From contig JAOZIF010000136.1 in NCBI GenBank assembly GCA_026014495.1, positions 3,886-67,885 of the forward strand: a stretch of DNA of 64,000 bases, written 5' to 3'. A program made the translations under genes and the position numbers. This stretch comes from Candidatus Bathyarchaeum sp. (GTDB lineage Archaea; Thermoproteota; Bathyarchaeia; Bathyarchaeales; Bathyarchaeaceae). The notes under the pieces are model-generated. The model searched no databases. It worked only from the letters and a program-made list of their open reading frames with translations, and was not told the origin of the DNA. Position 1 is the first letter of the stretch. The number at the start of each line of letters is the position of its first letter. Positions 33-56,113 of this stretch are shown here, one piece after another.

Positions 33-94
33 GCCAAGCATATTAGGAGACTAATAGAGGTACATTGTTGAAAACAGTCTTTTTTATGAAAAAC
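33..94 (-). repeat. Copy R1 of a ~60-bp interspersed intergenic repeat (working consensus TTTTCTGAAAAAAGGTTGTTTTCAACAATGTACCTCTATTAGTCTCCTAATATGCTTGG)
   Basis: Reverse complement reads GTTTTTCATAAAAAAGACTGTTTTCAACAATGTACCTCTATTAGTCTCCTAATATGCTTGGCTG. 26 nt are identical to the copies at 13456 and 55151, and the last 27 nt are identical to the copy at 56051. Confidence 0.85.
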
Positions 95-134
95 TTAAGC
101 AACAACAAATCACGTTACTTACAGGTGTGCTTGC

Positions 135-476
135 TCAACTAGAACTGTATACTTTGTATCTGCGTTCACATCTTGAACAGCGCTTCAACAAATCCTCTAG
201 GCTCTTTTTTTTATCAACAAACCCCAACTTTTTCACAGACTGCCATTTCTCATCAACATCTGAGCAGTGATTGTAGCCTCTGCGCTTCATCTCTTCAACA
301 AGCTCTTCGTGACGAGCATACATGCTGTGAACTTCAAGCAGTCCCTTCTCCAAATAGCCCTTCACAGTTTTTCCGTGACACAAAGTTCCAATAAACATGT
401 GAATCTCCACATGCTCCCCCAAAAGATGCTGGCGACACATAATCTTCGGGTCTACCATCCACATTCGCATAAACAA
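135..476 (-). CDS. Pyrimidine-dimer DNA glycosylase-like protein (T4 endonuclease V / DenV-type family)
   Basis: 113-aa ORF. MRMWMVDPKIMCRQHLLGEHVEIH and RHEELVEEMKRRGYNH resemble the N-terminal and mid-protein patterns I recall for DenV-type glycosylases. Not searched. Confidence 0.5.
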   Translation of the reverse strand: MFMRMWMVDPKIMCRQHLLGEHVEIHMFIGTLCHGKTVKGYLEKGLLEVHSMYARHEELVEEMKRRGYNHCSDVDEKWQSVKKLGFVDKKKSLEDLLKRCSRCERRYKVYSSS

Positions 477-512
477 ACTACAGTAAACTTAGAGAATTAA
501 AACTATCTCAAA

Positions 513-565
513 CATATATTCCCCCATAACAGAGCATTGTTGAAACACGTTTTTAGTGAAAAACC
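513..565 (-). repeat. Copy R2 (diverged) of the ~60-bp intergenic repeat
   Basis: Reverse complement reads GGTTTTTCACTAAAAACGTGTTTCAACAATGCTCTGTTATGGGGGAATATATG. The left half is conserved (TGTTTCAACAATG) and the second hairpin is disrupted. Confidence 0.6.
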
Positions 566-699
566 AAACAAAAAGCCTGTTTTACCTAAATTATTGGACA
601 ATACGAAGAGCCTATAACCGCCATCAGCTCCTCAAATAACCGAAAGAAATAAAGAAGAACCACTTACTATTTGCTGAAGAGTAAAGAGAATGTGATTAC

Positions 700-1800
700 A
701 TGGGCAAAATTAGGGTTGGCGTAATTGGCGTAGGAAACTGTTTCGCTGGTCTAGCTCAAGGAATCGAATACTACAAGCGAAACAAAACCCAAAAATTAGG
801 ATTAATGCACGAAACAATCGGAGGTTACGGAATCGAAGACCTCGAATTTGTTTGCGCTTTCGATGTCGGAGAAAACAAAATAGGCAGACCCCTAAACGAA
901 GCAATCTTTTCAGACCCAAACTACGTAGACTGGGTTGACAGTGCATCGAGTTGCACAACAAGAAAAGTCAAAGAAAGCCCAACTCTTGACGGCGTAGGCA
1001 TCTACGTTGCAAGCATGATTAACCCAATTAAACAAACAAAACCCACACAAGAACTCGAAAAAGAAGCAATTGAAGAAATAAAAGCAACAAAAGCACAAAT
1101 CCTAATCAACTATCTGCCTGTGGGCAGCCAGAAAGCCACAGAATTTTGGGCAAACATCGCCCTTAAAACAGGTTGCGCATTCATAAACTGCATGCCCGTA
1201 TTTATTGCATCCAATAAAGAATGGCTCAAAAAGTTTGAGGCTGCAGGTCTTCCAATTGTAGGAGACGACGTCAAAGGCGTAATCGGCGCAACAATAACTC
1301 ACAGAACATTAGCCAAACTTTGCGTAGACCGCGGAGCATCAATAGACCGAACATACCAGATTAACGTCGGCGGCAACACAGACTTTGCTAACATGCTTGA
1401 ACGAGAACGGCTGGAAAGCAAAAAAATCTCAAAAACCGAATCCGTACAAAGTCAAATACCCGAAAAACAACGCTTAAACGCTAAAGACATATACATCGGA
1501 CCAAGCGACTTTATTCCCTTCCTGGGTAACACCAAACTAGCATTCATCAGAATAGAAGGAAGAATGTTCGCAAACATACCCTACAACATGGAAATCAGAC
1601 TAGACGTAGACGACAAAGCAAACTCAGGCGGAGTAGCAATCGACGCAATAAGATGCGCACAACTAGCCCTAGACAAAGGAATAAGCGGCAACCTAACATA
1701 CACTTCAGCATACCTCATGAAACACCCAATGGAACAAATGGGCGACGAAGACGCCAGAGAAAAACTGGACAACTGGATTTCTGAACTAGAAAACAAGTAG
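700..1800 (+). CDS. ino1: myo-Inositol-1-phosphate synthase (bacterial/archaeal short type)
   Basis: 366 aa. IRVGVIGVGNCFAGLAQGIEYY, NMLERERLESKKISKT and SAYLMKHP align closely with the mycobacterial-type Ino1 sequence as I recall it. Confidence 0.85.
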   Translation: MGKIRVGVIGVGNCFAGLAQGIEYYKRNKTQKLGLMHETIGGYGIEDLEFVCAFDVGENKIGRPLNEAIFSDPNYVDWVDSASSCTTRKVKESPTLDGVGIYVASMINPIKQTKPTQELEKEAIEEIKATKAQILINYLPVGSQKATEFWANIALKTGCAFINCMPVFIASNKEWLKKFEAAGLPIVGDDVKGVIGATITHRTLAKLCVDRGASIDRTYQINVGGNTDFANMLERERLESKKISKTESVQSQIPEKQRLNAKDIYIGPSDFIPFLGNTKLAFIRIEGRMFANIPYNMEIRLDVDDKANSGGVAIDAIRCAQLALDKGISGNLTYTSAYLMKHPMEQMGDEDAREKLDNWISELENK

Positions 1801-1814
1801 CAGGAACACAAAGC

Positions 1815-2441
1815 TTGCCCAGCAAACCCCGCCCCCTTCTCATTTCTTGCGGTATCTTGCGAAAAGAAATCGAAAAACTCATAGAACAAAAACAACTTGA
1901 TGTTGATGTTCACTTCTTGGATGCAGGTCTACACGTAGTTTACGCTGAACTAGAAAAAGAAATAGTTTCTGCGCTCAAAAAAGCAAAAGACCACGCAGAA
2001 AACGGAATAGTTGTTGTCTACGGCGACATGTGCCATCCACGAATCAAAAAAATCGTCAAACAATACCGCAATGCCGTCAAAGTTGACGCCTTAAATTGCA
2101 TCGACTGCCTTCTTGGCGGACACAAAAACCTTCTACAGGCAGACCCAAAATGCAGTTACTTCTATTTGTCTCCAGGATGGATGCCTTCAAATCTCAAACA
2201 AACCGAATATTTTCGAGAAATCTTTGACTGGAACTTGGAAGGCATAAAAGAGCAATTTGAACACCTTAATGGGTTAATTATAATCGATTCTCTAGACAAC
2301 CTAAACGAGCTAAAAAGTGACATAGAAGAATTCAGTGAAAACACGGGACTTGCTGTTAAAGAAACAAAAACTGTGGGACTTGATGGACTAAAGTCTGTTA
2401 TCGATGAAGCAATAAAAAAACTTCAAAGCTCAACAAAATGA
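1815..2441 (+). CDS. DUF1638-like protein
   Basis: 208 aa with a TTG start. LLISCGILRKEIEKL ... HFLDAGLH ... IVVVYGDMCHP fits the DUF1638 pattern as recalled. Confidence 0.45.
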   Translation: MPSKPRPLLISCGILRKEIEKLIEQKQLDVDVHFLDAGLHVVYAELEKEIVSALKKAKDHAENGIVVVYGDMCHPRIKKIVKQYRNAVKVDALNCIDCLLGGHKNLLQADPKCSYFYLSPGWMPSNLKQTEYFREIFDWNLEGIKEQFEHLNGLIIIDSLDNLNELKSDIEEFSENTGLAVKETKTVGLDGLKSVIDEAIKKLQSSTK

Positions 2442-2455
2442 GTATCAATGACTTT

Positions 2456-3349: not shown

Positions 3350-3474
3350 AACCTCTTGTAGAACAAGAATGGCTTTTATCTTTTACCCGAATATCTCAAT
3401 AAACCATACAAATAATCCGTTTGTAGCATGCTGGCAGTTGCATTCCATTTGTCTAGCCAAGACTATCTAATGTG

Positions 3475-4664: not shown

Positions 4665-5639
4665 ATGCCAAAAGCCTCTAAAAAGGGATTGCTTAAGCTG
4701 TACAAGGACCATAACGTGCAGCTTCTTATTAGCAAGTTTGTTAGCGGAGAGCTTGACGCACTGAATCCAACTTTTGACCCAAAGCAGGGTTTTAGATATC
4801 CAATTGTGGATAACCTAGTTGGGGACTCTAGCACCGAAGACTTTTTGCAGAGTCTCTCTGATGGTGGTGTTCTAGAGAGAAAGCTTTACGACAAAATTGT
4901 CTATTGTCCCTCATGTAATTCAGCGAACGTTTCGATTCATTATACTTGCCCCCACTGCAAGTCGTTTGACGTTAAAAAGAGCGCCTTGATTGAACACATA
5001 AAATGTGGATACATCGACACTGAAGACCACTTTCAAAAAGAAGGCAAACTAATCTGTCCTAAATGTAACAAACCTTTACTCGCTCCTGATGTGGACCATC
5101 ACAAAGCAGGAGTATGGTGCACCTGTAACCAATGTTCAAAGAGCTTTGACATTCCAGTTCCAGCACATTTTTGTCGAAAATGCGAAGAAAACTTCACTTT
5201 CGACGAAGCAATCTACAAAGACGTTTACTCCTACACTTTGACCCCAGAAGCGGCAAAAGAGGCAACGGTAGGTTGGATTATGATTGCTCCCATTATGGAA
5301 TTTTTGGGAGATAAGGGATTCGAAATCGAAAGTCCAGGTTTCTTGGACGGAAAATCTGGAACGCGCCACATGTTTGATTTAATTGCGGTTTCTTCTAAAA
5401 AGAAGAAAACAACTGCGATTGACTTAGCAACATCTAATGACGGTGTTGTATCTGAACAGTCAGTGATTTCTATGTTCGCTAAGGTTTTCGACGCTAATCC
5501 AGACCAAGCTTGTCTTGTTGTGATTCCAAAAATGACTGAAAGTGGCAAAAAATTGGCAGCACTCTACAAGATTGATTTGATTGAAGGTAAAGATCAGAAT
5601 GCTGCAATAGATGCCTTGAAGAGTTGTGTATCACAATAA
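4665..5639 (+). CDS. Multi-zinc-ribbon protein with a C-terminal alpha/beta (possibly nuclease-fold-like) domain; candidate regulator next to the pilus locus
   Basis: 324 aa. Four CxxC pairs (CPSCNS..CPHCKS; CPKCNK..CNQCSK..CRKCEE). The C-terminal part GTRHMFDLIAV...TAIDLAT...LVVIPK looks like a small alpha/beta module. Confidence 0.55.
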   Translation: MPKASKKGLLKLYKDHNVQLLISKFVSGELDALNPTFDPKQGFRYPIVDNLVGDSSTEDFLQSLSDGGVLERKLYDKIVYCPSCNSANVSIHYTCPHCKSFDVKKSALIEHIKCGYIDTEDHFQKEGKLICPKCNKPLLAPDVDHHKAGVWCTCNQCSKSFDIPVPAHFCRKCEENFTFDEAIYKDVYSYTLTPEAAKEATVGWIMIAPIMEFLGDKGFEIESPGFLDGKSGTRHMFDLIAVSSKKKKTTAIDLATSNDGVVSEQSVISMFAKVFDANPDQACLVVIPKMTESGKKLAALYKIDLIEGKDQNAAIDALKSCVSQ

Positions 5640-9862: not shown

Positions 9863-9908
9863 ACAAAAAATAGGGCATATTAAGACTTAATAAAACCTAT
9901 GTATTCGG
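9863..9908 (-). repeat. Possible degenerate half-copy (R8) of the ~60-bp repeat
   Basis: ACAAAAAATAGGGCATATTAAGACTTAATAAAACC parallels ACAAAAACCAGCCAAGCATATTAGGAGACTAATAGAGG of R1, and keeps a palindrome TATTAAG-A-CTTAATA. The GTTTTCAACAAT half is not recognisable. Confidence 0.3.
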
Positions 9909-9935
9909 AATCACTTGCCAAAATCAATCAAAAAA

Positions 9936-11714
9936 CTAAGCTGCCCAAAAAGGAGACTCGGCACGCCTAATTTCAACAAACTCGTTTAGGGCTTCAATTT
10001 CTTCAGCCGACAAGCGATCTTCGAACTTGGTCAAAAGTAGCTTTGCATGAGATTCAGGCACTTTAACATAGAAATTTTCTCCTTCATGGATGTGTCGTCC
10101 TACGACTGTTTTGCCTAATGAAACTGCTACTTGTGAGCCGACACCCGATTCTGAAGCTGCTTTGCCTTTGTCTTGAATTTGTAAGATTTCTCCTACGTTA
10201 CGTCCGTCCTCTTTGGTGAGAACTTGTTTTGGTTTTATTTTTCCTGCCAAAACTTCAACGCCGATAACTGCGGGTTTTGCTTTTCGGAACACATATCCGG
10301 GAAGAAACTTGACTTTGGCGGGTTTGACCAGTCTGTTGAATTCTTCTTCAAGTCTTGTTTCGTCCTCTTGTTTGAGCCATGCTAGGTATTCATCTATGAG
10401 GCTGTAAATGGTTCTTTCATTGAATATGCGGATATCGCGGTTTCTTGCTTCTTCTTCGGCGTCAGGCAAAACCTTAACGTTGAATGCTAGAATAACTCCA
10501 TGAAGTGGCTCTCGTTCTTTGACAACTGCTGCCTCAGTTACGTCACGTCTGGATACATCACCAACGTCAGCCAGCTTTATTGGAACGTTGTTTCGTTTCA
10601 GGCTTTCGGCAATTGCTTCAAGAGAGCCCAAGGCGTCAGTTTTTAAAACAATGCCGTCTAGGTCAGTTGTGATTTTGATTTGTTCGACCTCTTCTGAGAC
10701 CAGCTTCATGTATTGTTCAAGTTGATCTTCAGATGGAACCGCATACAATGGGGCGCCTGCTAATGTGTCCTCAAGGTTTGGTGCTGCAATCTTTACTCCA
10801 GCTGCAGCTGAAACAGAAGTAACTGAAGAAAACTTGTCTCGGGGGTCTCTGATTTCGTCTAGGGGCTTAGGCAAGAAAACTGCACGAATGTTTGTTACAA
10901 TCGGTTTTTCTTTGGCGCCAACAACTATGAGGTCGCCTTTTTGTAGTGTTCCATCGTAAATAATCACGTTGGCTGTGATTCCTAATCCTGGCTCTTCTTT
11001 AACCTCTAGGACTGTTCCTTTTGCTGGTCCTTCTGTTGTTTTGAGCCTAGCCTTTAGGTACTGTTGGGTCAAACCTACAAGGACAGTTAAAAGTTCAGGT
11101 ATGCCTTCTCCTGTTGTTGCGCTTGTGGGGACGATGGCGATTGTTTTGGTGAAGTCTTTTACGTTGTTGAATTTGTCTGTTCTAAATCCTAGTCTAGAAA
11201 ATGTTCCCATGATTCGGTACAGGTTTTCGTCTAGGGCTTGCTGAACGTATGGGTCTTGGTCTTTATATGATGCTGAAAATGTTTCGTCTGGGTGAGGTTT
11301 CCATCCTGGTATGCGGTCAATTTTGTTTGCTGCCACAAGGAATGGCGTCTTTTTTTCTTTGAGGATTTCGATGCACTCGTAGGTTTGTGCCTCAAATCCC
11401 CTTACCACGTCGACTACAAGAATTGCGATGTCGGCTACTGCGCCGCCTCTTTTTCTTAGGTTAACAAAGGCTTCATGGCCTGGGGTGTCGATGACCAGTA
11501 GTCCTGGAAGCTGTACGTCTTTTTTCAGTCCCTTAAACAGTGGTCCACAGATTTTGGCTATGGTGTCTACTGGAAAGTAGCTTGCGCCGATGTGTTGGGT
11601 GATTCCTCCGACTTCGCGGTCTTGGACGCTACTTTTTCTAATTTTGTCAAGTAGTTTAGTCTTTCCGGCGTCTATGTGGCCTAGAACTGAAACGATGGGT
11701 TGTCTTATCGGCAA
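9936..11714 (-). CDS. infB: Translation initiation factor aIF5B (IF-2 family GTPase)
   Basis: 592 aa with a TTG start. G1 GHIDAGKT, G3 DTPGHEAF, G4 NKID, with full-length collinearity to aIF5B. Confidence 0.95.
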   Translation of the reverse strand: MPIRQPIVSVLGHIDAGKTKLLDKIRKSSVQDREVGGITQHIGASYFPVDTIAKICGPLFKGLKKDVQLPGLLVIDTPGHEAFVNLRKRGGAVADIAILVVDVVRGFEAQTYECIEILKEKKTPFLVAANKIDRIPGWKPHPDETFSASYKDQDPYVQQALDENLYRIMGTFSRLGFRTDKFNNVKDFTKTIAIVPTSATTGEGIPELLTVLVGLTQQYLKARLKTTEGPAKGTVLEVKEEPGLGITANVIIYDGTLQKGDLIVVGAKEKPIVTNIRAVFLPKPLDEIRDPRDKFSSVTSVSAAAGVKIAAPNLEDTLAGAPLYAVPSEDQLEQYMKLVSEEVEQIKITTDLDGIVLKTDALGSLEAIAESLKRNNVPIKLADVGDVSRRDVTEAAVVKEREPLHGVILAFNVKVLPDAEEEARNRDIRIFNERTIYSLIDEYLAWLKQEDETRLEEEFNRLVKPAKVKFLPGYVFRKAKPAVIGVEVLAGKIKPKQVLTKEDGRNVGEILQIQDKGKAASESGVGSQVAVSLGKTVVGRHIHEGENFYVKVPESHAKLLLTKFEDRLSAEEIEALNEFVEIRRAESPFWAA

Positions 11715-13345: not shown

Positions 13346-13455
13346 CCTTATTTTTCAAGTGCTGAGTTAATCGGAGACAGGGTTTATGAATGTTTCGACC
13401 TGAGGGCTAGTGTTCTACATTAACTAGTTTGGTTTTGGTGTTTTTGTTGCGTGAA

Positions 13456-13510
13456 TTTTTTCTGAAAAAAGGTTGTTTTCAACAATGTACCTCTATTAGT
13501 ATCCTAATAG
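13456..13510 (+). repeat. Copy R3 of the ~60-bp intergenic repeat
   Basis: TTTTCTGAAAAAAGGTTGTTTTCAACAATGTACCTCTATTAG (42 nt) is identical to the copy at 55151. It is followed by TATCCTAATAG, completing a 7-bp stem CTATTAG/CTAATAG. Confidence 0.9.
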
Positions 13511-13596
13511 GGCTCTGGTTCTTTTTGGTCATTATCTGCTGTTTTGTTGGTTTGTGAGCAGTGTAACTTATAAGAAAACTTTGCATTTGGTCAAGT

Positions 13597-26348: not shown

Positions 26349-29300
26349 CTATTTCTCGGCTAATCGTTCAACCCGTGCCTTATACAAGGCGCTTGTGGCT
26401 TGATAAATGTCAAGCATTTCCTTTTTATTTAATCCTAAAATATCACAGAAGACTATTTCATCTAGTGCTTGCCTCTCCTCAAGTAAAACTTCCTCAAAAA
26501 GAGGCTTAACTTCGTGACCTGCTATCTTATCTAATGCTTGTTCCAACTTTTTAATTATTAAAGGGTTCTTCTTTTCAATTTTTTTCATATCAAGTGTTGG
26601 TACTTCTCTCAACTCGTAAATTTTAATTTCGTTAGATATTGTTTTGTCTCTATTTTCTATGTATCTACCACAAAATTCAGTAAGCAAAGCAGTAAGGGTT
26701 GAATTAAGCACAGCGCAATGAGCCTTTGCATACTTCTTATTAAAAGGGCGTATCTCGTCCAAACAATCTGTAGCATAGAAACCCAACTTGTTATAGAATA
26801 TGATGTGTCTTCCCCAATAGATACTTGGAGAAAGAATCAAACTTTTCGGTCTGCTATCCAAATCATACCAAGGCTTTCTCGAAGAGCAGGTTGGATGCTC
26901 ATGATAACCAGCATATTTTGTCGCCCTCCAAAAATGTTCCTTAGTTTCACCATACTCGATATATTCTAAGACTTTTTTTCCGCCATTTTTAAGCGCACTC
27001 TTTTTTTCTTTGCATATAAGCAAGTATCCATCTTTTTCAAGATTAGATATGCTTTTGTGGGGTCTTATTTTATTTAAGACAGGCTTGACATACTCCCATT
27101 CTATCCAAAAACGTTCTTTTTTGGTGCCTTTATCTATAAGAACTAAGAACTCGGGGGTTTCTTTTGTCTTGAAAAATCGATTTGGAAAACAAAAGAAATG
27201 GTTTGCGCCAGTTTTGATTGCATATTTAACATCAGCTACTTTTCGTAGAGGAATCACAAAATCTTTTGCTTGTTCCAATAGCTTAAAGAAAGCTGTGGGA
27301 GCTACCAAATATTTTCCCCATTTCGGATCGTTTCTAAGATCACATTGTCTAACAAGAACTATCTTAAAATCTTCATTTTCATAAAACCAGACTTTTCGAT
27401 CTAAAAATTCAGTTTCTTTAAAATCAAATAACTTCTCAGCACATTCAATACTATTTACGAATTTATCCACTTCGCTCCAACGATAAATTTCCTGAACCAT
27501 ATCACGTTCGTCAGAAATTGCTGGGACCAATTTAGAGATAGGAGATTTAAGTTGAACAAATTTAACGAGATTATCATTTCTTTCTTTTTTCTGGTTGCAC
27601 ATTTCAAGAATTGAAACACATGGAAGCATTTGAGCGTCAGGGAACCATTGTTCTTCATTTGATTCAATAATTGCTACAAGTTTACAATGGTCAAGGAAAA
27701 AATTCTTTAATGCTTTTCCATATTTCACATCAAGCCACGATCTCAATGTCACAAATCCAAGCCTACATTTGTCTTCCAAAAATTTTAAACTGTGAATGAA
27801 AAAGTAGGCGTAAATACTTGCCCTCAATGATAGATTAATATGTGGGTAGTCTTTTTGGATGGTCGCTAGTAGTGTTTCTTCCTTATAATTATGACCAAAC
27901 ACTTCTTCCAACATTTCTTCTTGACGTGTATATGGTGGGTTTCCGACAACTGCACACATTAGGGGCAACTTTTTCTCTATTACTGATTTATCTAACTTGG
28001 GAACTTGTACTACTGTTTCTTTTTTGGGGATACCATAAGCCTCCAAAGTATGCTGTACTCCAATATCTACTTGTGATCTTGGAAAAACCTCAAAGAAATC
28101 ATTGTACACTATGTTTGGATAGTTCTTTTCTACCGTCAAATCTCTTATTGCGAGATTTATTGTAGAAAGGTGAGCGGGAAACTTAGCGATATCGACTCCC
28201 CAAAGCCGTCGGAGTAAATCTTTGTGAGATATTTTGCCTTCCAAATACTTGAGTCGGTAATATGACCTTACAAGAAATGTTCCTGAACCACAGGCAGGAT
28301 CGAGTACTATATCTTGTTTATTTTTTACACAAAATCCTATAATCAAATCAACAATATCCGATCGAGTGAAATATTGACCTAAAGTATGGCGCTCTGTTGT
28401 TGGAATTATTTTCTCGAAAACTTTTCCGATAATATCGTAGCCAATGTTGGAATAATCAAGTGTTTGTAAGTAGCCAATTGTTCTAATTAATTCAGATATA
28501 GTATCACTGGGGAGAGGAATTTTATCAACAAAGTTCGTTTGAAAAACTGTTTCATAATTTCCAGATTTCTCTATACCTATGTTAAAAAATGTTTGAAGGA
28601 GCGTATAGAATGTGTCTGAAGTCAATCCTTTTGGTAAAGTAAGTTCGGGTAAAGCATATTTGACTTTAAGAACATTATAAAATAGCAATTTATTCACGAA
28701 AATATACGTATATTGTTTTGCTAAAATTATACAATATTCTTCAAGTTTTGTTTTGTTTCCTTTTGGATCGTCCCAACCATTATCCGCTAACCACACTTCG
28801 AATTTCAGTCGATAGTCTGAGTCCTCAATATATCTTGAAACAAGCTCGTTTACTAAATGCGTTGTGCTGACAATACCGTTGATGTAGTTATGCAGAACTT
28901 CCACTATGCTCTCATCTATGGGTTTTGGAGGTTCCCCTTCAAGAAATTTTGAAAACCATAAAAGAAATCTTTTGAAGGAGCCTCGAATTTCATCGGTTTT
29001 TCTGAAATATTCTTGCAGTTCTTTTACATATGTGATAGCGAACTCGGCAATTCTTTTGAGTGTTACAGCATCCCATAATACAAGAAAGTTCACATTATGA
29101 GTTGCAAAATATCTTATGTGTGGACGATAATTTTCTACATATCCTATTGTTTGCTCAATAACTTCAGGATTGTAAGGTGCATCCATTTCCTCTGGACGTT
29201 TTACTTCAATTAGAAAAAAACAGTTGTTCTTATCATCTAAGAAAAGTATATCGGCACGTTTCCTTTCCTTTACCATCTCAACTTTTACTTTTCCAAGTGG

Positions 29301-29522: not shown

Positions 29523-29888
29523 GAAGTTTTCATATTTCCTGTCCTCCTACGTGTTCCTAATATTGCAAAGAACGGGAATGTCAAGATAATATTCTCTTCA
29601 GAAAACAGTTGGGGAATGAAAGAAATCTTGATTCCATTTGAGATTGTTAAGTTAAGTCCTATTGTTTCTAAAAAATATTTACTCGTTTTTTAGCTTTGTT
29701 AACAGCCTTTTTCAGAAGCTCAGATTTGCTATTCTTGGTTTCCATAATGTATGTTCACTTCTCAAATATTTTGCTAAAAGTAAAGCTTCTTCATTTATCA
29801 GGGTTTCAAGGGTTTGTTTTTTGCCGTGTCTTATTCTTGGGCGTTTTGCTTCTGACCCCAACTTTGCGGTGTTTTTGTTGATTGTGTG

Positions 29889-30218
29889 TTATTTGTTGTT
29901 TGTTGTGAATAGTTCTAGTAATAGTTCGTAGAGTTCGTTTCCGCCTTCTATTTTGGTGAATAGTGTTTTTTCTGCGGTGAGTATTTTTTGTGCTGTGTCG
30001 CAGGTTCGTCTCCATTCTAGTTCTTTCCACATGAGCTTGTAGTTTTTGTGCTCCACCCATGCCCGAAACACCAGCACAGTAAACATTGCTACGGTAACCA
30101 AAAGATTTAGAACATAAATGCTTAGCAAATCCAACATAACCGCCTCAATATACTGTTTAGTTTCTGTAGATTCATAAGATTTATTACCGCAAAACAGAGT
30201 ATCGGTTTTTGCTCTCAC
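29889..30218 (-). CDS. Hypothetical small single-pass membrane protein upstream of the R-M gene
   Basis: 109 aa with one hydrophobic helix (LLSIYVLNLLVTVAMFTVLVF). It is on the same strand as the R-M gene and inside the AT-rich island. No family recognised. Confidence 0.35.
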   Translation of the reverse strand: MRAKTDTLFCGNKSYESTETKQYIEAVMLDLLSIYVLNLLVTVAMFTVLVFRAWVEHKNYKLMWKELEWRRTCDTAQKILTAEKTLFTKIEGGNELYELLLELFTTNNK

Positions 30219-30376: not shown

Positions 30377-30436
30377 TCAAGCATATTAGGAGACTAATAG
30401 CAGAATATTGTTGAAAACTAGCTTTTCTGAAATTTT
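30377..30436 (-). repeat. Copy R5 of the ~60-bp intergenic repeat (right border of the R-M island, inverted relative to R4)
   Basis: Reverse complement reads AAAATTTCAGAAAAGCTAGTTTTCAACAATATTCTGCTATTAGTCTCCTAATATGCTTGAGG. It ends 2 nt from the ThiF/MoeB stop codon. Confidence 0.85.
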
Positions 30437-30438
30437 TA

Positions 30439-31434
30439 CTAGCAACCACCAATCAAGTCACTGAAAAGCTTGAGTGCTTCCTTTTTTTCTTTGAAGCCTT
30501 CAACAATCATAACTCCGCTTTTTAGAACACTCACCTTAACATCGTCACGAATAGAAGTCAACCCCAACTTACCTTTAGCTTTGAAACTAAACCCTCGTTT
30601 AATCAATACTTCCTCCACCTCTACAAGGTTAACTTCCAAGTTTTCTGTTGGAACTATAACATATGTTCTCTTTCCGTTACGTCCACAAACTTCTTCCACG
30701 ACTTCATTTTTTAGCTGCACAGCAGAACCTGACACTTTTACTCCACAGACGGGACACGAATCAACGTTTGAGAGATTAATCTCGTTAAATTCCAGTTCCT
30801 CCAAGTCAAAATGCAAAAGCTTGTTGACTAACCGCGGCTTCTTTCCCGTAAGTATCCTGATTGCCTCGCTGACTTCTAGACTTGCAATAATATTCACCAA
30901 AGACGGGTGAACACCCACCACCCCACATTTAGGCAACTTTTTGTCATCAAGATTCCCATAAAAACACTCAAGGCACGCTGTTTCCCCCGGAACAATCGTG
31001 GACAAGTTACCTGTAGTAGCTACTGCTGCTCCAAAAACGTAAGGTACCCCAAGCTTGTTGCAAGCTCTGTTTACTGCATAACGTGCAGCCATACTATCCA
31101 AGCCATCAACCACAACATCCATTCCCTGAACAAGGTCTTCTGCGTTGGTCTGGTTTACTGAAAACGTAAGAGGCTCAATGTTGATGTAGGGATTCAGCTT
31201 CTCTAACCGTTTGGCGGCAGCCTCAACCTTCGCAAACCCAACATCATCAACACCATAAAGGTGCTGACGGTGCAAATTAGTTCGCTCTACTACATCGCGG
31301 TCAACAATCCGTAGATGCCCAACTCCCATAGCCGCCAGCTGCATCGCCGCAGGAGAGCCTAACCCGCCTACACCAAGCAAACAAGCTTTAGAATTTTTTA
31401 GTTTCAGCTGAGCGTTGTAGCCCATTTCAGCCAT
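30439..31434 (-). CDS. ThiF/MoeB/HesA-family E1-like adenylyltransferase
   Basis: LLGVGGLGSPAAMQLAAMGVGHLRIVDRDVVERTNLHRQ, plus CxxC pairs. The conserved N-terminal LSKEELDYYSRQ motif is encoded in frame upstream of the first ATG (up to 31509), so the true start is probably further upstream. Confidence 0.85.
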   Translation of the reverse strand: MAEMGYNAQLKLKNSKACLLGVGGLGSPAAMQLAAMGVGHLRIVDRDVVERTNLHRQHLYGVDDVGFAKVEAAAKRLEKLNPYINIEPLTFSVNQTNAEDLVQGMDVVVDGLDSMAARYAVNRACNKLGVPYVFGAAVATTGNLSTIVPGETACLECFYGNLDDKKLPKCGVVGVHPSLVNIIASLEVSEAIRILTGKKPRLVNKLLHFDLEELEFNEINLSNVDSCPVCGVKVSGSAVQLKNEVVEEVCGRNGKRTYVIVPTENLEVNLVEVEEVLIKRGFSFKAKGKLGLTSIRDDVKVSVLKSGVMIVEGFKEKKEALKLFSDLIGGC

Positions 31435-35548: not shown

Positions 35549-36805
35549 TCAAACATTTTTTGTTTTTCTAAGCTTTCCAAACAAGTAAACATCTATCTCT
35601 GTTCCTACATCTACAAACTGCTGTTTTTCAGAGATTTCAACAAAACCGTCAGCCTTAACCAAAGTTGTTATGGCACCAGACAAGCCAGTAGGAACAGGAC
35701 TCGCAATTAGCCTTCCTGAGTTATCATAACCCAAATTTACCATTGTAAATGTTCTGCGTCCTCGCGCCGGAAACATCTTCTGGGCAGCCACTGCCTTAAG
35801 CGTGTGCAACTCTTCTTCTGGTCTTCCAGCAAGCTTAACAATTACAGGACGAACGAACACGTTAAACATGAAGAGTGATGACGTTGGGTTACCTGGCATG
35901 GAAAAGACAGGTTTTTCGTTAACTACTGCAATTGTGATTGGTTTCCCAGGCTTCACAGCTACTCCAGATATGATTACTCCCGGTTTACCTAAACTATCTA
36001 CAACTTGAGGCGTAAAGTCCTTTGGACCAACTGAAACTCCGCCCGAAGTTATCACAGCATCCGCCAAAGACAAAGCTTTCTTGAGCGCGTCTGTCAATTC
36101 CTCTTTATTGTCTGGGATAATTCCCAAGTTAATCGGCTCTCCTCCAGCTTCAGTAACCGCAGCACTCAATGTATGAGCATTTATATCATAGATTTTTCCT
36201 GCAGGAAGCGGTTCTCCGGGTGCCACAACCTCCGCGCCTGTGGATAAAACAGCCACTTTGGGGCGCTTGTAAACAGTAACTTCAGTTAAGCCAATTGCAG
36301 CCAGAACCCCAATTTCACGAGAACTCAGAAAACGACCCACTTTTAGAACAGTCTCGTTTTTGCTAATGTCTGAGCCTGCAGCCATAATGTTCTCACCTAT
36401 CGTAACTGGGCGGTGCACAAAAACGGAATATTCTCTGGGTGTTGTATATTCAACCATTACTACTGCATCTGCGCCTTCAGGTAGGGGCGCGCCAGTCACT
36501 ATCTCAGCAATTAACCCCTTTTTTACAACCACATTTGGGGCTTCGCCTATCGCAACATGACCACAAAATTTTAGGGTAACCGGTTTGTCTTCACTTGCGT
36601 CGAACGTGTCAGCAGCTTTTACTGCATAACCGTCAACAATTGACCGAGTGAACGAAGGGATGTCTGCTGGTGACGTAACGTTCTGGGCTAGCACTCGCTC
36701 ATGAGCTCCTGAGAGAGAAACTTGTTCGACTCCAATAGGCTTAGCAGAAAAGCTCTGTTCAAGAAGTTGTTTTGCCTCATCAAAAGAAAGAAGTTTTCGG
36801 AACAT
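35549..36805 (-). CDS. moeA: Molybdopterin molybdenum/tungsten transferase MoeA (paralog 2)
   Basis: 418 aa. RSIVDGYAV, SGGVSVGPKDF and PGNPTSS are MoeA motifs. Confidence 0.85.
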   Translation of the reverse strand: MFRKLLSFDEAKQLLEQSFSAKPIGVEQVSLSGAHERVLAQNVTSPADIPSFTRSIVDGYAVKAADTFDASEDKPVTLKFCGHVAIGEAPNVVVKKGLIAEIVTGAPLPEGADAVVMVEYTTPREYSVFVHRPVTIGENIMAAGSDISKNETVLKVGRFLSSREIGVLAAIGLTEVTVYKRPKVAVLSTGAEVVAPGEPLPAGKIYDINAHTLSAAVTEAGGEPINLGIIPDNKEELTDALKKALSLADAVITSGGVSVGPKDFTPQVVDSLGKPGVIISGVAVKPGKPITIAVVNEKPVFSMPGNPTSSLFMFNVFVRPVIVKLAGRPEEELHTLKAVAAQKMFPARGRRTFTMVNLGYDNSGRLIASPVPTGLSGAITTLVKADGFVEISEKQQFVDVGTEIDVYLFGKLRKTKNV

Positions 36806-36806
36806 A

Positions 36807-38036
36807 CTACTCCCTCACTATGCTTGAAAAAAGTTGCACCCTAACAGCTTCTCCCTCGTCTATGCCTTCACGGTTTTCAGGAATAATCACATACCCGTTT
36901 GCCTTTGTCATAGTTGTTAGCACACCCGACCCAGTTACTCTGACTGGTTCAGCAAAAAAGCTGTCACTTCTCTCAAACACGTGAACACGCAAAAAGACTC
37001 TTCGTCCCAGAGCCCCTGCAACTCTTCGTGTAAGTTTCGCCTCCACTGCTGGTCTAGTCTCATTTACTCCCAGCAACCTAAGCAATGTAGGTCGAGTGAA
37101 CGCCTCAAAGCCTACAGTTGCTGCCACAGGGTTTCCAGACAACACAAAAACGGGTTTGCCTTTAAGAATCGCCAAACCTGTTGGCATTCCAGGTCTTATG
37201 GCAACGCCATGCACAATTACCCCCGGCTTGCCTATCTTGTTAACTGCCAAAGGAACCAAGTCTGGGTATCCAACGCTTGTTCCTCCAGTTGTAATAACCA
37301 CATCTGCTTGCTCTAACCCTTCCTCAATTTTAGACACTATCTCCTCCAGATTGTCTTTGACTAACCCCAAATTCAGCGGCTCGGCGCCCAATTCCATGCA
37401 CAGGCTAGAAAAAACTAGCCGATTAGTCTCCACAATCTTGCCATGCTCAAGCTTGTTTCCCAACTCCACAAGTTCGCTTCCAGTTGCTAAGATGGCAACT
37501 TTAGGTTTTTTGACAACAGACACGTTGGTTTCGCCCAGCGCCGCCAATAACCCTAAATGGTGAGGATTTAGTCGGGTACTAGCAAGTATGGCTACATTTC
37601 CTTTTGTTACGTCTTCTCCCCTTTTGGCTACGTTTCTGCCTGGAGTAACTGAAGCTGCCAACTCAATCTTGCCCTCAGACTTCTTGGTGTACTCAAGCAT
37701 AACCACTGCATCCGCGCCCTCGGGAACTGGGTTTCCAGTCCACAGCTCTTTTGCCTCATTTTCGTTGACTTTATCTTTTGTTAGCTTGAAACTTTTAGTT
37801 TTAAATGCAGAAACTCCGAAAGTGTCCTTTGCTCGCAGGGCATAGCCGTCTACTGCGGAGCGGTCAAAACGTGGCAAGTCATCCTTGGCTCGAACGTCCT
37901 CTGCAGTAACTCGACCTAGTGTCTCGTGAATTGGAATTCGTTCAGAACCTAGCTGTTTTGGATTAAGTTGCCCCAAAAACGATTGAAGAGCATCATCCAC
38001 GTTTGTAAGTTTTTCAAAGCCTTTAAGCCGAACCAA
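36807..38036 (-). CDS. moeA: Molybdopterin molybdenum/tungsten transferase MoeA (paralog 1)
   Basis: 409 aa. RSAVDGYAL, TGGTSVGYPD and SGNPVAA motifs. It lies in tandem with the second MoeA with a 1-nt gap. Confidence 0.85.
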   Translation of the reverse strand: MVRLKGFEKLTNVDDALQSFLGQLNPKQLGSERIPIHETLGRVTAEDVRAKDDLPRFDRSAVDGYALRAKDTFGVSAFKTKSFKLTKDKVNENEAKELWTGNPVPEGADAVVMLEYTKKSEGKIELAASVTPGRNVAKRGEDVTKGNVAILASTRLNPHHLGLLAALGETNVSVVKKPKVAILATGSELVELGNKLEHGKIVETNRLVFSSLCMELGAEPLNLGLVKDNLEEIVSKIEEGLEQADVVITTGGTSVGYPDLVPLAVNKIGKPGVIVHGVAIRPGMPTGLAILKGKPVFVLSGNPVAATVGFEAFTRPTLLRLLGVNETRPAVEAKLTRRVAGALGRRVFLRVHVFERSDSFFAEPVRVTGSGVLTTMTKANGYVIIPENREGIDEGEAVRVQLFSSIVRE

Positions 38037-38233
38037 AGATAAGCCCTCTCAGTAAAGAGCAAGAAAGTAGGCGTAAAAAACTTATCGCAAAACGCTGCAT
38101 AAACAATTAATATTGCTGCCAACACAGCTGATTTATCTGTGGTTTATTGAAAAAAGCGATACATCTGAAGGAAAACTTAAATAAACTGCAACTTACTTCG
38201 GTAGTTAGCCTAAAAGAGACGTGAATATTCAAG

Positions 38234-38698
38234 ATGTCTAGAGAATTTCAGCACATCATAAGATTTGCCGGAGCCGATATTGAAGGGACACAACCGGTAA
38301 CTTACGCCCTGACAAACATAAAGGGAGTAGGAATAAAACTAGCAAACGCAATTATAGAGAAAACTGGAATCAGCCCAGAAACAAGAATGGGTTTCCTTTC
38401 TAGTGCTGATATAGAAAAAATTGAAGATGCCATCACAAACCCAGTAAAGCATGGTATACCTGTGTGGCTTCTAAATCGCCGAAAAGATCTAGACACCGGA
38501 CAAGACATTCATCTCTTAGGCACAGACCTAATTGTTCAAACTAAGAACGATATCGAGCAGATGAAAAAGATACGCTCATGGAAAGGCTTCCGTCACAGTT
38601 ATGGATTAAAGGTTCGAGGCCAAAGAACCAAATCTACGGGTAGAGAAGGAAAAGCTATGGGTGTAAAGAGGAAACAGGTCCAGCGAGGAGGCAAATAA
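38234..38698 (+). CDS. rps13: Ribosomal protein uS13
   Basis: 154 aa. IRFAGADIEGTQPVTYALTNIKGVG and GLKVRGQRTKSTGR. Confidence 0.95.
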   Translation: MSREFQHIIRFAGADIEGTQPVTYALTNIKGVGIKLANAIIEKTGISPETRMGFLSSADIEKIEDAITNPVKHGIPVWLLNRRKDLDTGQDIHLLGTDLIVQTKNDIEQMKKIRSWKGFRHSYGLKVRGQRTKSTGREGKAMGVKRKQVQRGGK

Positions 38699-54018: not shown

Positions 54019-54075
54019 CTTGTTGGCGGAACTTTTTATTACACTTAATTGAGTTATTTCTTGAGGGGTCAACGG

Positions 54076-55113: not shown

Positions 55114-55150
55114 ATTGTGAAAAGAAGTTAATGAGAGCTTAGCGTTAATT

Positions 55151-55207
55151 GTTTTCTGAAAAAAGGTTGTTTTCAACAATGTACCTCTATTAGACTACAA
55201 ATATGTG
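55151..55207 (+). repeat. Copy R6 of the ~60-bp intergenic repeat
   Basis: GTTTTCTGAAAAAAGGTTGTTTTCAACAATGTACCTCTATTAGACTACAAATATGTG. 42 nt are identical to R3. It lies 37 nt after the DUF3795-fusion stop and 5 nt before the TIR-like gene stop. Confidence 0.9.
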
Positions 55208-55212
55208 TGGTT

Positions 55213-55986
55213 CTATAGCCATCCTAGTTTGTTTGCGTCGACGTCAAAGTTGGCAGCTTTTAGTTCTTTGATTAGTTTAAGGTACCATCCCGTTTTGTAT
55301 TCTATCCAGAGAATTTGGTTGTCTTGGTTTGGGATTTTGAAGTCTTTGGTTTTCTGGTAAATTGCAGCCACGTTTTGGGGTCCAAGGTGTCCTAGAAAGT
55401 AGCCTAGTTCAAAGATGCTGTTTTGGTTTGCTTGAGTTTTTGCTTCTTGCGGAGTTTTTTCTTTTGGGTACACCCGATTGTCTGGGGACAAAAGGACTAC
55501 TGCAAAGGAGACGTGCGGGTTTTCGTTTATTGTTTTGGTTATTGTTTGTTGTTCGTGTACGATTATGGGGTCAAGGTCTAGTTTTTGCAGTGTTTGGGTT
55601 ACGTCTGTTTTCATTGTTGGGTCGTTTCCGTGGACGAGAAAGATTTTGTTTGACCTGACTTGGTTGTTGATTTTTTTGTTTCCCGTGGGTGGAGCTAGGA
55701 GTAGCTTTACTTTTTGTAGCAGAATATTTGATGCGTTGGCGACTTCTCTTAGTTTTGCTTGTTCTTGTTTGGTGAAGCCTGAATCGAATGTTTGTTCGCT
55801 GAAGGGGACTGGTTCGATGGGTTTTAGTTCTTTGTAGAAGCCTAGGGCTTGTATGTCGTTTAGTATTTTGTTGTATGTGTTTACGTAGTTTTCGTAGCTG
55901 CTCCAGAATTTTTCAGAAAAGTCTTCTTTTGAGCTATACGCAAGTGTTTCTAATTCTATTATTAGCGAACCAAAATCTATCGCCAT
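55213..55986 (-). CDS. TIR-like domain protein (COG4271/PF10137-type nucleotide-binding TIR-like domain) with an unknown helical N-terminal domain
   Basis: 257 aa. KIFLVHGNDPTMKTDVTQTLQKLDLDPIIVHEQ, FAVVLLSPDN and QNSIFELGYFLGHLG match the remembered signature of the Cap12/PycTIR-type TIR-like domain. Confidence 0.65.
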   Translation of the reverse strand: MAIDFGSLIIELETLAYSSKEDFSEKFWSSYENYVNTYNKILNDIQALGFYKELKPIEPVPFSEQTFDSGFTKQEQAKLREVANASNILLQKVKLLLAPPTGNKKINNQVRSNKIFLVHGNDPTMKTDVTQTLQKLDLDPIIVHEQQTITKTINENPHVSFAVVLLSPDNRVYPKEKTPQEAKTQANQNSIFELGYFLGHLGPQNVAAIYQKTKDFKIPNQDNQILWIEYKTGWYLKLIKELKAANFDVDANKLGWL

Positions 55987-56050
55987 CTATCTAACCCATT
56001 TAGAATTGGTTTGCTCACCTGTATATTCGTATCTTTTTGGTGCTGCTACC

Positions 56051-56113
56051 TTTTTCTGGAAAAAGGTTTTTTTCAACAATGTTCTGCTATTAGTCTCCTA
56101 ATATGCTTGGCTG
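56051..56113 (+). repeat. Copy R7 of the ~60-bp intergenic repeat
   Basis: TTTTTCTGGAAAAAGGTTTTTTTCAACAATGTTCTGCTATTAGTCTCCTAATATGCTTGGCTG. The last 27 nt are identical to R1. Confidence 0.9.

What the first reader, a model, noticed from the sequence alone, without database searches (positions are those of the whole stretch)
33..56113. ~60-bp interspersed intergenic repeat family (7 clear copies plus 1 degenerate) sitting at the borders of accessory genes
Reading the intergenic DNA shows the same 55-62 nt element at seven places:
- 33-94 (-)
- 513-565 (-, diverged)
- 13456-13510 (+)
- 25931-25990 (+)
- 30377-30436 (-)
- 55151-55207 (+)
- 56051-56113 (+)
A weaker half-copy lies at 9863-9908.

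The shared core is GTTTTCAACAAT-N6/7-CTATTAG-N4-CTAATA. 42 nt are identical between the 13.4-kb and 55.1-kb copies, and 27 nt are identical between the copies at 33 and 56051, so the copies are mosaics of two subtypes. Each copy carries two small palindromes (GTTG-TTTT-CAAC and TATTAG-N4-CTAATA, loop GAGA on the reverse strand) and an A6/T6 tract.

The element has no terminal inverted repeats, no regular spacing, and is never inside a CDS. Copies bracket three accessory units:
- the DenV-like gene, with direct copies;
- the type IIG R-M island, with inverted copies;
- the TIR-like gene, with direct copies.
The degenerate copy sits at the right edge of the pilus locus.

Candidate roles are a bidirectional terminator or insulator between transcription units, an operator for a dimeric regulator, a recombination or targeting site for cassette exchange, or a small RNA. 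I cannot distinguish these from sequence alone.
Basis: seen in the sequence. Interest (0 to 1): 0.75.

Follow-up and report, generated by a model that had tools for sequence, protein, structure and literature searches.

The report
Archaeal intergenic repeat shared with viruses
A DNA motif of about 65 bases recurs between genes in one group of sediment archaea (Bathyarchaeia) and in one clade of their tailed viruses; it stays almost unchanged across species and sits where gene order and defence genes change, but its function is unproven.

Summary
The repeat is real. The window holds six strong copies and one diverged copy (526-570). The claimed half-copy at 9863 is not above chance. The host is a Bathyarchaeia archaeon.

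In about 298 kb of related DNA I found 20 strong copies. One lies upstream of purM in 6 of 6 genomes where that region is visible. Others lie near the methionine adenosyltransferase (MAT) gene and the TIR gene. One copy also sits at a fixed place in 12 tailed-virus contigs, where it contains the start of the ORF in front of the large terminase gene.

Invariant blocks (A6G, GTTTTCAACAAT, YTATTAG-N4-CYAATATG) are separated by free spacers. The purM-linked core is 82% identical across genomes, against 53% at neutral sites. I found no RNA covariation, no Rfam match, no terminal inverted repeats and no regular spacing. Spacer variants are shuffled among copies, genomes and viruses, and the genes next to copies differ in every relative.

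Best reading (confidence 0.4): a REP-like dispersed DNA element, recognised by a protein and kept uniform by recombination between copies. It marks transcription-unit borders in general, not only accessory-gene cassettes. Promoter, terminator and att/pac-site roles remain open.

My two large collection scans used a wrong spacer length, so the wider distribution is untested.

The parts
38..103 (-). Strong copy, 41 nt downstream of the DenV-like gene (135-476, -) and co-oriented with it. Its 3' tail (down to position 2) is also similar to the tail of the copy at 56041.
   Evidence: nhmmer 57.1 bits; inverted-repeat pair I1, 92 nt; Pfam PF03013 for the gene.
526..570 (-). Diverged copy in the divergent gap between the DenV-like gene and the inositol-1-phosphate synthase gene. 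The 5' two-thirds is kept. The hairpin half has decayed to GGGGGAATATATG, a TATA-like box about 45 nt upstream of the DenV-like start.
   Evidence: nhmmer 20.1 bits, E=1e-4; local alignment score 26 against a null maximum of 14; sequence.
13451..13511 (+). Strong copy upstream of purM and co-oriented with it, about 55 nt upstream of purM's own invariant promoter (GTAACTTATAAGAAAAC, about 13562-13579). The L7Ae gene diverges on the other side.
   Evidence: nhmmer 56.6 bits; orthologous copies in L108, L111, L117, L118 and L119; core identity 0.82 against 0.53 at four-fold sites.
25930..25989 (+). Strong copy 134 nt downstream of the MAT gene. It forms the left border of the low-GC R-M island.
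   Evidence: nhmmer 55.7 bits; copies in the same place in L108 and L109; GC profile.
30381..30448 (-). Strong copy at the right border of the R-M island. Its 5' extension (GGTTGCTAG) contains the last codons and stop codon of the ThiF-family gene (30439-31434, -).
   Evidence: nhmmer 53.5 bits for 30381-30431; sequence context; Pfam ThiF.
55146..55205 (+). Strong copy between convergent genes. It lies 38 nt after the DUF3795 gene, and its other end lies about 7 nt from the stop codon of the TIR gene. Forty-two nt are identical to the purM copy.
   Evidence: nhmmer 50.0 bits; repeat family D1; context.
56041..56106 (+). Strong copy 55 nt upstream of the TIR gene start, in opposite orientation to it. 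It lies about 95 nt upstream of a conserved 21-aa ORF (56203-56268), with which it is co-oriented.
   Evidence: nhmmer 60.3 bits; the same element-TIR arrangement in L121; small ORF conserved in L109.
9875..9943 (-). Possible decayed relic directly after the aIF5B gene stop codon. Not statistically supported.
   Evidence: Not found by nhmmer at E<=5; local score 12, p=0.05; sequence.

Best explanation
What it is. This is a family of dispersed DNA repeats of about 65 bp. It is restricted to one clade of Bathyarchaeia and one clade of their tailed viruses, and it works like bacterial REP/BIME-type small repeats.

Structure. Each copy has invariant blocks separated by unconstrained spacers of fixed length: (TTGCTTRG)-T5, then A6G, then GTTTTCAACAAT, then YTATTAG-N4-CYAATATG.

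How I think it acts (inferred). The element acts as double-stranded DNA. The invariant blocks are contact sites for a sequence-specific protein, and the 6-4-6 palindrome suits a dimer. That protein could be a host factor or the enzyme that propagates the element.

How copies stay alike. Copies keep exchanging sequence with one another, including with the viral copy, by recombination or gene conversion. The exchange itself is shown by shuffled spacer variants. Its consequences are inferred:
- it keeps copies alike over long times;
- it makes them mosaics;
- it seeds new copies at gene borders;
- it turns copies into points where gene order breaks and where accessory or defence genes come to lie.

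Position. The element sits at the outer edge of transcription units, between the end of one gene and the separate BRE/TATA promoter of the next. Its T5/A6 block may add weak oligo-T stop signals on both strands (inferred).
For: - Real, multi-copy and intergenic.
- The constraint is on primary sequence. Blocks are invariant and spacers free in 17-20 host copies and 12 viral copies.
- No RNA support. Fold energies are within the shuffle range. RNAalifold finds only one invariant 6-bp hairpin on one strand and nothing on the other. The covariation score equals that of shuffles. Rfam gives nothing, even at E<=10.
- Long-term retention. A copy lies upstream of purM in 6/6 genomes whatever the upstream neighbour is. 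Its core identity is 0.82, against 0.53 at four-fold sites and about 0.5 in the flanks. Profile scores are bimodal: 20 copies at 50-61 bits, 2 at 20 bits, then noise.
- Exchange between copies. Spacer and loop variants occur in all combinations within the window. The window's purM copy carries the GTACCT variant shared with two paralogues, but not with purM copies of other genomes. The same variants (GTACCT, GAAGTA, NNNCTG) recur in viral copies and do not follow the TerL or flank clades. Pairs of copies share extra flanking similarity of ragged length.
- Break-points. Downstream of MAT every relative has different genes. A catalase gene is inserted next to the purM copy in L119. The single element of L109 corresponds to two window copies about 30 kb apart.
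- Neighbouring genes have their own TATA boxes 35-140 nt away at variable distance.
Against: - No binding protein, transposase or recombinase was identified. None is seen among the ORFs annotated in the window.
- Purifying selection for a local cis function (promoter, terminator) would explain the conservation equally well without ongoing exchange.
- In tandem-gene contexts, host copies are co-oriented with the genes in about 7 of 7 independent loci. This hints at a role tied to transcription direction rather than a purely symmetric DNA site.
- In the viruses the element supplies a start codon and sits where a promoter or packaging site would be. This points to a more specific function.
- Only about 300 kb of related host DNA was examined, and the copies are not independent samples.
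Confidence: 0.4

Rival explanations
1. Portable promoter module. The TATA-like palindrome (CTATTAG / CTAATATG) would be a core promoter. Read on the reverse strand, it would start a nearly leaderless transcript at ATTGTTG in block B. The other blocks would be regulator sites. Copies would then form a set of co-regulated start sites, and the virus would use one for its packaging operon.
For: - In 12 viral contigs the reversed element begins 1-3 nt after the stop of an 84-aa gene and contains the only possible start codon (TTG TTG) of the conserved 111-aa ORF that overlaps the TerL start. The sequence just downstream shows a coding pattern of variability by codon position, 0.38/0.15/0.65.
- The box in block D resembles real TATA boxes of this genome, such as GGTATATATG at MAT and GGAATATATG at DenV.
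- The decayed copy at 526-570 keeps exactly such a box about 45 nt upstream of DenV.
- Intergenic repeats of halovirus HF2 carry promoters (PMC8707807, seen).
Against: - Every host gene next to a copy has its own TATA box at a variable distance of 35-140 nt.
- In most host copies a reverse-strand transcript would run antisense into the 3' end of the preceding gene and meet a T6 run after about 20 nt.
- The TATA-like box lies only about 17-24 nt upstream of the proposed start, closer than the usual 23-30 nt.
- The neighbouring genes have no common function.
Confidence: 0.2
2. Two-way transcription stop or insulator as the primary function. The T5-N3-A6 block would give oligo-T termination signals on both strands, and the rest of the element would bind a protein that reinforces the boundary between transcription units.
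For: - The A run (a T run on the other strand) is at least 5 long in nearly all copies. The T run is at least 4 in 14 of 20 copies.
- The upstream gene's stop codon lies inside or within a few nt of the element at ThiF and purE.
- The other end abuts stop codons of opposite-strand genes within 1-7 nt: TIR, the ORF in L107 and the viral 84-aa gene.
- In tandem-gene contexts, host copies are co-oriented with the genes.
Against: - About a third of copies lie in divergent gaps where nothing needs stopping.
- In the viruses the T5-6 run lies inside the first codons of a conserved ORF, so it cannot be an efficient stop there.
- MAT has its own hairpin plus T7 directly at its stop codon, upstream of the element.
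- Only 8 of 25 genes in the window have a T5 run within 60 nt of the stop, so oligo-T ends are not the rule here.
- A 65-nt conserved sequence is far more than oligo-T termination needs.
Confidence: 0.12
3. Recognition site shared by virus and host. The element would be an attachment (att) or packaging (pac/cos-like) site. Chromosomal copies would then be places where the virus or other mobile DNA recombines with the chromosome, or where the chromosome is packaged, bringing in or moving the adjacent cassettes.
For: - The same 65-bp sequence is present in host chromosomes and in one virus clade.
- In the virus it spans the 5' end of the ORF in the small-terminase position. That is where pac/cos sites of tailed phages lie (own knowledge of SPP1, P22 and lambda).
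- Spacer variants are exchanged between viral and host copies.
- Single genes are flanked by direct copies: DenV-like and TIR in the window, a GT2 gene in L121.
- Defence genes (R-M, Mrr, TIR, an AbiGi-like ORF) lie next to copies.
Against: - No integrase or recombinase was found in up to 15 kb of viral contigs.
- No provirus flanked by copies was seen.
- The R-M island is flanked by inverted copies, not direct ones.
- The best-conserved copies sit between core genes with no foreign DNA nearby.
- No viral contig ends at the element.
Confidence: 0.1
4. Classical non-autonomous transposon (MITE- or IS200/IS605-derived) that is cut and pasted by a transposase encoded elsewhere, inserts at T-rich gene ends, and is otherwise junk.
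For: - Copy number differs between related genomes, from 0 to 3 per 20 kb.
- Near-identical paralogues exist within one genome.
- The element is present in a virus. MITEs shared by hosts and viruses are known (PMC11602168, seen).
- Flanks of the same copy resemble each other slightly more than flanks of different copies (p=0.009, 0.027 and 0.083 in three tests).
Against: - There are no terminal inverted repeats.
- The ends are ragged rather than sharp.
- The flank-duplication signal is weak and has no fixed register.
- The scarcity of decayed copies and retention at orthologous sites over saturating neutral divergence are unusual for junk insertions.
- No transposase was seen.
Confidence: 0.1
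5. Small structured RNA gene or RNA-level 3'-UTR element.
For: - One 6-bp hairpin is kept in 97% of cells.
- One G-U variant is compatible with the forward strand.
- A stem around block B can be drawn in 10 of 17 copies with different sequences (own versus cross pairing, p=0.036).
Against: - No covariation.
- Fold energies are no better than shuffles.
- No Rfam match.
- Two recurrent variants break the hairpin (CAAATA, TAATAG).
- No conserved promoter lies at a fixed distance.
- 7 of 17 copies form no stem around block B.
Confidence: 0.05

Closest known systems
Bacterial REP / BIME / REPIN elements
   Same: Short extragenic repeats in many copies. They contain a palindrome, sit at gene ends and between genes of all orientations, persist at orthologous sites, are bound by host proteins in E. 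coli (own knowledge), and serve as substrates for rearrangement.
   Different: The host is archaeal. The element is AT-rich with a weak 6-bp stem and has no GTAG/CGTC tag (family features as in PMC3733652, seen). It has long non-palindromic invariant blocks. No RAYT-type gene is known for it. It is also present in a virus.
MITEs shared between prokaryotes and their viruses; Neisseria Correia elements
   Same: Small non-coding intergenic repeats that can carry promoter or terminator signals and are found in both host and viral genomes (PMC11602168, seen; Correia properties from own knowledge).
   Different: There are no terminal inverted repeats, no clear target-site duplication, and the ends are ragged.
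Intergenic repeats of halovirus HF2 (58-bp class I)
   Same: An archaeal system with a similar length, AT-rich motifs and intergenic position. The repeats were shown to carry promoters (PMC8707807, abstract seen).
   Different: Those repeats are confined to a viral genome and precede genes. Here most copies are chromosomal, lie in every kind of gap, and are accompanied by separate gene promoters.
Integron attC sites, including archaeal integrons
   Same: Imperfect palindromic sites about 60 nt long at the borders of accessory gene cassettes.
   Different: There are no RYYYAAC/GTTRRRY core sites at the ends, no array, and no adjacent integron integrase. Copies are scattered among core genes.
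pac/cos packaging sites of tailed phages (SPP1 pac, lambda cosB)
   Same: In the viral copies, a multi-block element with A/T tracts spans the upstream region and the first codons of the ORF in front of the large terminase gene (own knowledge for the phage sites).
   Different: No cleavage or terminus evidence is available. The viral 111-aa ORF has no recognisable small-terminase domain. Many chromosomal copies exist.

Membership tests
REP/BIME (REPIN) | Imperfect palindrome that forms a stable, usually G+C-rich hairpin | tested here: not met
   Only a 6-bp A/T-rich stem. RNAalifold gives -2.18 kcal/mol. Single-copy folds are within the shuffle range.
REP/BIME (REPIN) | Conserved GTAG or CGTC tetranucleotide at one end | tested here: not met
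   Alignments of 20 copies show no such tag. Feature as named in PMC3733652.
REP/BIME (REPIN) | Cognate RAYT (Y1 transposase-like) gene flanked by repeats | not testable with these tools
   The complete genome is not available. There is no such domain among the 30 window ORFs scanned.
REP/BIME (REPIN) | Many extragenic copies per genome | tested here: met
   7 copies in 64 kb and 20 strong copies in 298 kb, all in gene gaps or overlapping only stop codons.
MITE | Terminal inverted repeats | tested here: not met
   The ends (TTGCTTRG-T5... and ...CYAATATG) are not complementary.
MITE | Target-site duplication of fixed length directly at both ends | tested here: inconclusive
   Own-flank versus cross-flank similarity gives p=0.009, 0.027 and 0.083 in three tests, with no fixed register.
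Integron attC | RYYYAAC ... GTTRRRY core sites at the two ends; array next to an integron integrase gene | tested here: not met
   The 3' end is CYAATATG. Copies are 0.4-25 kb apart among core genes. No integrase domain was found in the scanned ORFs.
CRISPR array | Regularly spaced direct repeats with unique spacers | tested here: not met
   Spacings are 12477, 29217 and 900 nt and so on, on both strands.
Any Rfam RNA family | Match to a curated covariance model | tested here: not met
   No hit at gathering score in the window. At E<=10 only a few weak hits to unrelated families turned up in two sub-regions holding three copies, and nothing relevant.
Archaeal oligo-T terminator | Run of at least 5 T just downstream of a gene on its sense strand | tested here: inconclusive
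   T runs are present on both strands in most copies and abut stop codons in several. Copies also occur in divergent gaps and inside a viral ORF start.
Archaeal BRE/TATA promoter | TATA-like box about 25 nt upstream of a transcript or leaderless ORF start | tested here: inconclusive
   A TATA-like palindrome is present, and the viral ORF start lies 17-25 nt downstream of it. Host genes have their own TATA boxes. No transcript data are available.
Phage att or pac/cos site | Identical core in virus and host with recombinant junctions, or genome termini / terminase binding at the site | not testable with these tools
   The shared sequence is shown. No integrase, junctions or termini are seen in the partial contigs.

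The most novel reading that the evidence does not exclude
The element is a recognition site shared by Bathyarchaeia and a clade of their tailed viruses or virus-like particles, either an attachment site or a packaging (pac-like) signal. The chromosomal copies would then be places where viral or other mobile DNA recombines with the chromosome, or where chromosome segments are packaged. That would drive turnover of the defence and accessory genes next to them. It would be an attC-independent cassette or transduction platform in an uncultured archaeal lineage.
Probability: 0.1. Interest if true: 0.85.

Novelty: new variant of a known kind. Interest (0 to 1): 0.55.

Why it matters
Bathyarchaeia are abundant in sediments, barely cultured and genetically intractable, and almost nothing is known about their non-coding DNA. 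This is a 65-bp element conserved across species, sitting at gene-order break-points and defence islands, and shared with a virus clade. It offers three things:
- a sequence marker that links viruses to their Bathyarchaeia hosts;
- a concrete candidate for how these genomes rearrange and acquire defence genes;
- a defined bait for finding the first sequence-specific DNA-binding factor, or a portable promoter or terminator, in this lineage.

If it turns out to be only a selfish repeat, it is still a new family that annotation pipelines should mask or label.

Tried and rejected
1. My own error. The scans of genome contigs, metagenome contigs and the first viral scan used 7 N between CAACAAT and CTATTAG, whereas canonical copies have 6. 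They could find only the variant that is 1 nt longer (L107) and chance hits (Streptococcus oralis, 'Hestiella' and others). The caps blocked a repeat. Absence from GTDB genomes or JGI metagenomes must therefore NOT be concluded. The corrected pattern on viral contigs found the virus clade. A looser pattern added only chance hits.
2. An exact-protein look-up of the window's MAT gene found nothing. The TIR protein is 100% identical to one on an NCBI MAG contig of 71,885 bp; I did not fetch it.
3. RNA readings tested and dropped:
- single-copy folds;
- RNAalifold on both strands;
- pair counts for the three proposed hairpins;
- a stem enclosing block B (p=0.036, 7/17 copies without a stem);
- C/D-box, H/ACA and K-turn patterns, checked by eye.
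4. Target-site duplication gave a weak and unstable signal. The motif TTGCTTRGTTTTT is not enriched on its own (19 matches against 12.6 expected).
5. Fixed spacing to the purM promoter was rejected. The distance is 41-50 nt in five genomes but about 130 nt in L118.
6. No conserved RNA or ORF is common to all gaps downstream of MAT. Only the 21-aa ORF is shared, by L109 and the window.
7. BLAST against plasmid and phage GenBank collections gave no match.
8. Literature searches for a described Bathyarchaeia repeat or for the motif strings found nothing relevant.
9. A resemblance to the SurR GTTn3AAC motif, Hin hix half-sites, Lrp-type TGAAA/TTTCA half-sites, Orc-binding boxes and CRISPR repeat ends was noted from memory only. 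None was tested, and none is used as evidence.

Full report
**Observation**

- GTTTTCAACAAT (up to 1 mismatch) occurs 7 times against 1.27 expected.
- The repeat finder recovers the direct and inverted pairs at 80-92% identity over 45-60 nt.
- The two composite half-patterns occur only in the six strong copies, with 0.28 and 0.06 matches expected.
- A profile built from all copies scores the six window copies at 50-60 bits and the diverged copy at 526-570 at 20 bits. The best hit in 827 kb of unrelated control loci is 12.8 bits.
- The copy at 513-565 keeps the 5' two-thirds (score 26 against a null maximum of 14) and has lost the hairpin.
- The 'half-copy' at 9863 is not distinguishable from chance (p=0.05). 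It could still be a decayed relic directly behind the aIF5B stop codon.
- The element extends further 5' than described (TTGCTTRG-T5). That part overlaps the ThiF stop codon.

**Host and neighbours**

- The window encodes L7Ae, S28e, an archaeal-type S-adenosylmethionine synthetase (MAT), aIF5B and a purine operon.
- The closest MAT and purM proteins (91-92% identity) come from metagenomes, and several are named Candidatus Bathyarchaeota or Bathyarchaeum. The host is therefore a Bathyarchaeia archaeon.
- An Mrr nuclease and a weak AbiGi-like ORF also lie nearby.
- The R-M segment has GC 0.35 against 0.42-0.46 around it.

**Copies elsewhere in hosts**

I fetched contigs of relatives through MAT, purM and TIR homologues and found 14 further strong copies.
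- A copy lies upstream of purM and co-oriented with it in all six genomes where that region is visible. The upstream neighbour varies: purE (probably the ancestral state, with the purE stop codon inside the element), L7Ae, a ThiS-like gene or an inserted catalase.
- purM has its own invariant BRE/TATA promoter 41-50 nt further on, or about 130 nt in one genome. The element is therefore not that promoter and is not phased with it.
- Copies also lie just downstream of MAT in three genomes, and one gene further on in two others. Two relatives have none there.
- The copy upstream of the TIR gene recurs in a genome whose TIR protein is only 71% identical.

**Selection**

- Across the six purM-linked copies the 48-nt core is 82% identical on average. 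The comparison values are 53% at four-fold degenerate sites of the adjacent purM gene and about 50% in the spacer and the upstream flank.
- Profile scores are bimodal, with few decayed copies.
- The family is therefore held constant, either by selection or by continual homogenisation.

**Not an RNA structure**

- Single copies do not fold better than shuffles.
- RNAalifold finds only the invariant 6-bp TATTAG/CTAATA stem on one strand and nothing on the other, with no compensatory change.
- A possible stem around GTTTTCAACAAT is weakly above cross-pairing (p=0.036) but absent in 7 of 17 copies.
- Rfam gives nothing relevant.
- The constraint is on primary sequence in blocks, with free spacers of fixed length. 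This is the pattern expected for protein contacts on DNA (inference).

**Exchange between copies**

- Spacer and loop variants occur in all combinations among the window copies.
- The window's purM copy carries the spacer GTACCT, which it shares with two paralogues in the same genome but not with purM copies of other genomes.
- Some pairs share extra similarity of different lengths beyond the core: 92 nt for the copies at 38 and 56041, and about 50 nt for the two copies that flank a GT2 gene in L121. These ragged ends fit recombination better than cut-and-paste with defined termini.
- Flanking direct repeats that would indicate target-site duplication are only weakly supported (p=0.009 to 0.083).

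**Viruses**

With the corrected pattern, ten IMG/VR contigs carry one copy each, and two more were found through their large terminase.
- They encode a large terminase (TerL), a tail tube protein and neck proteins, so they are tailed viruses.
- The copy is always in the same place. The reversed element starts 1-3 nt after the stop of an 84-aa gene. It contains the only available start codon (TTG TTG within ATTGTTGAAAAC) and the first ten or so codons of a conserved 111-aa ORF that overlaps the TerL start.
- The sequence just beyond the element varies by codon position as 0.38/0.15/0.65, so it is coding.
- Viral copies carry the same spacer variants as host copies (GTACCT, GAAGTA, NNNCTG). These variants do not follow the viral flank or TerL clades. 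L130, L135 and L131 share one variant although their TerL proteins are 79-89% identical, while closer relatives carry others.
- More distant viruses (TerL 54-57% identical) lack the element.
- No integrase and no tRNA gene were seen.

**Break-points**

- The gene order upstream of MAT is conserved. Downstream of the MAT-linked element, every relative has different genes.
- In L109 a single element lies between MAT and a conserved 21-aa ORF next to AlaRS. In the window, the MAT side belongs to the copy at 25930 and the 21-aa-ORF/AlaRS side to the copy at 56041, with about 30 kb between them.
- The association with variable gene content is therefore real. It is an association with transcription-unit borders in general, core genes included.

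**Mechanism**

Best reading (confidence 0.4): a REP-like dispersed DNA element recognised by a protein and kept uniform and mobile by recombination between copies, including viral ones.

Shown:
- repetition;
- block-wise primary-sequence constraint;
- lack of RNA covariation;
- retention at orthologous sites;
- shuffling of spacer variants;
- coincidence with break-points;
- sharing with viruses.

Inferred:
- protein binding;
- recombination as the cause of spread and of break-points;
- a weak two-way stop for transcription.

Rivals:
- A promoter (0.2). It is favoured by the viral context and the TATA-like palindrome. It is disfavoured by the separate promoters of all host neighbours.
- A two-way terminator or insulator (0.12). 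It is favoured by the stop-codon contacts and the T runs. It is disfavoured by copies in divergent gaps, by the T run inside the viral ORF, and by the rarity of oligo-T gene ends here.
- A shared att or pac site (0.1).
- A classical transposon (0.1).
- A structured RNA (0.05).

**Limits**

- Only about 300 kb of related host DNA was seen.
- Copies are related, so the counts are not independent.
- My two large DNA scans used a wrong gap length and say nothing about the wider distribution.
- No expression data are available.

Noticed in passing
window 56203-56268 (+); L109 11437-11502 (+): A conserved 21-aa lysine-rich ORF: MPSLEKKNKQKKKKHKEKWGE in the window and MPSLAKKNKQKKKKHDEKTGK in L109. 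It has its own TATA-like box and an SD-like GGTG, lies between the element and the AlaRS/ribosomal-protein cluster, and was not called as a gene.
   Followed up: partly
L127-L136, L143-L145 (IMG/VR contigs), e.g. L130 10818-12741: A clade of tailed-virus contigs (TerL, tail tube, neck protein; GC 0.46-0.51). A 111-aa ORF in the small-terminase position starts inside the host-type repeat. It matches no Pfam or PHROG family.
   Followed up: partly
window 26349-30218: A low-GC (0.35) island with a 1057-aa Eco57I/MmeI-like R-M protein and a weak AbiGi-like 109-aa ORF, lying between inverted copies of the repeat. Whether the segment inverts was not tested.
   Followed up: partly
window about 26070-26180: An odd G+C-rich stretch of CACAC/GTGTG-type runs (…CCCCACACACACCTGTTCGTGTTCACACGCCCGTGTACGTACGTGCGTGTGTGC…) in the long gap between the MAT gene and the R-M gene. 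No Rfam match.
   Followed up: no
L119 5387-6838: A catalase gene is inserted on the opposite strand between purE and the element-purM unit. Other relatives have purE directly next to the element.
   Followed up: no
L121 10413-11439: A GT2 glycosyltransferase gene is flanked by two direct copies of the repeat that also share about 50 nt of extra 3' tail. A third copy lies upstream of the TIR gene 3 kb away.
   Followed up: partly
window 55213-55986 (-): The TIR-domain protein is 100% identical to a protein on an NCBI MAG contig of 71,885 bp (Candidatus Bathyarchaeota), probably the source of the window. More than 1000 homologues exist, about 70% identical in many Bathyarchaeia contigs and in differing contexts.
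   Followed up: partly
window 35549-38036 (-): Two tandem MoeA-family paralogues (418 and 409 aa). GC skew and gene strand both switch at the divergent gap 38036-38234.
   Followed up: no
L145 12650-15187: After the terminase, an ABC-type ATPase and a winged-helix gene, there is an apparently non-coding stretch of about 600 nt. It is followed by a large secreted protein with repeated domains, which may mark a provirus/host junction.
   Followed up: no
window 4665-5639 (+): A protein with a TackOD1 (thaumarchaeal output) domain sits next to the type IV pilus-like ATPase locus.
   Followed up: no
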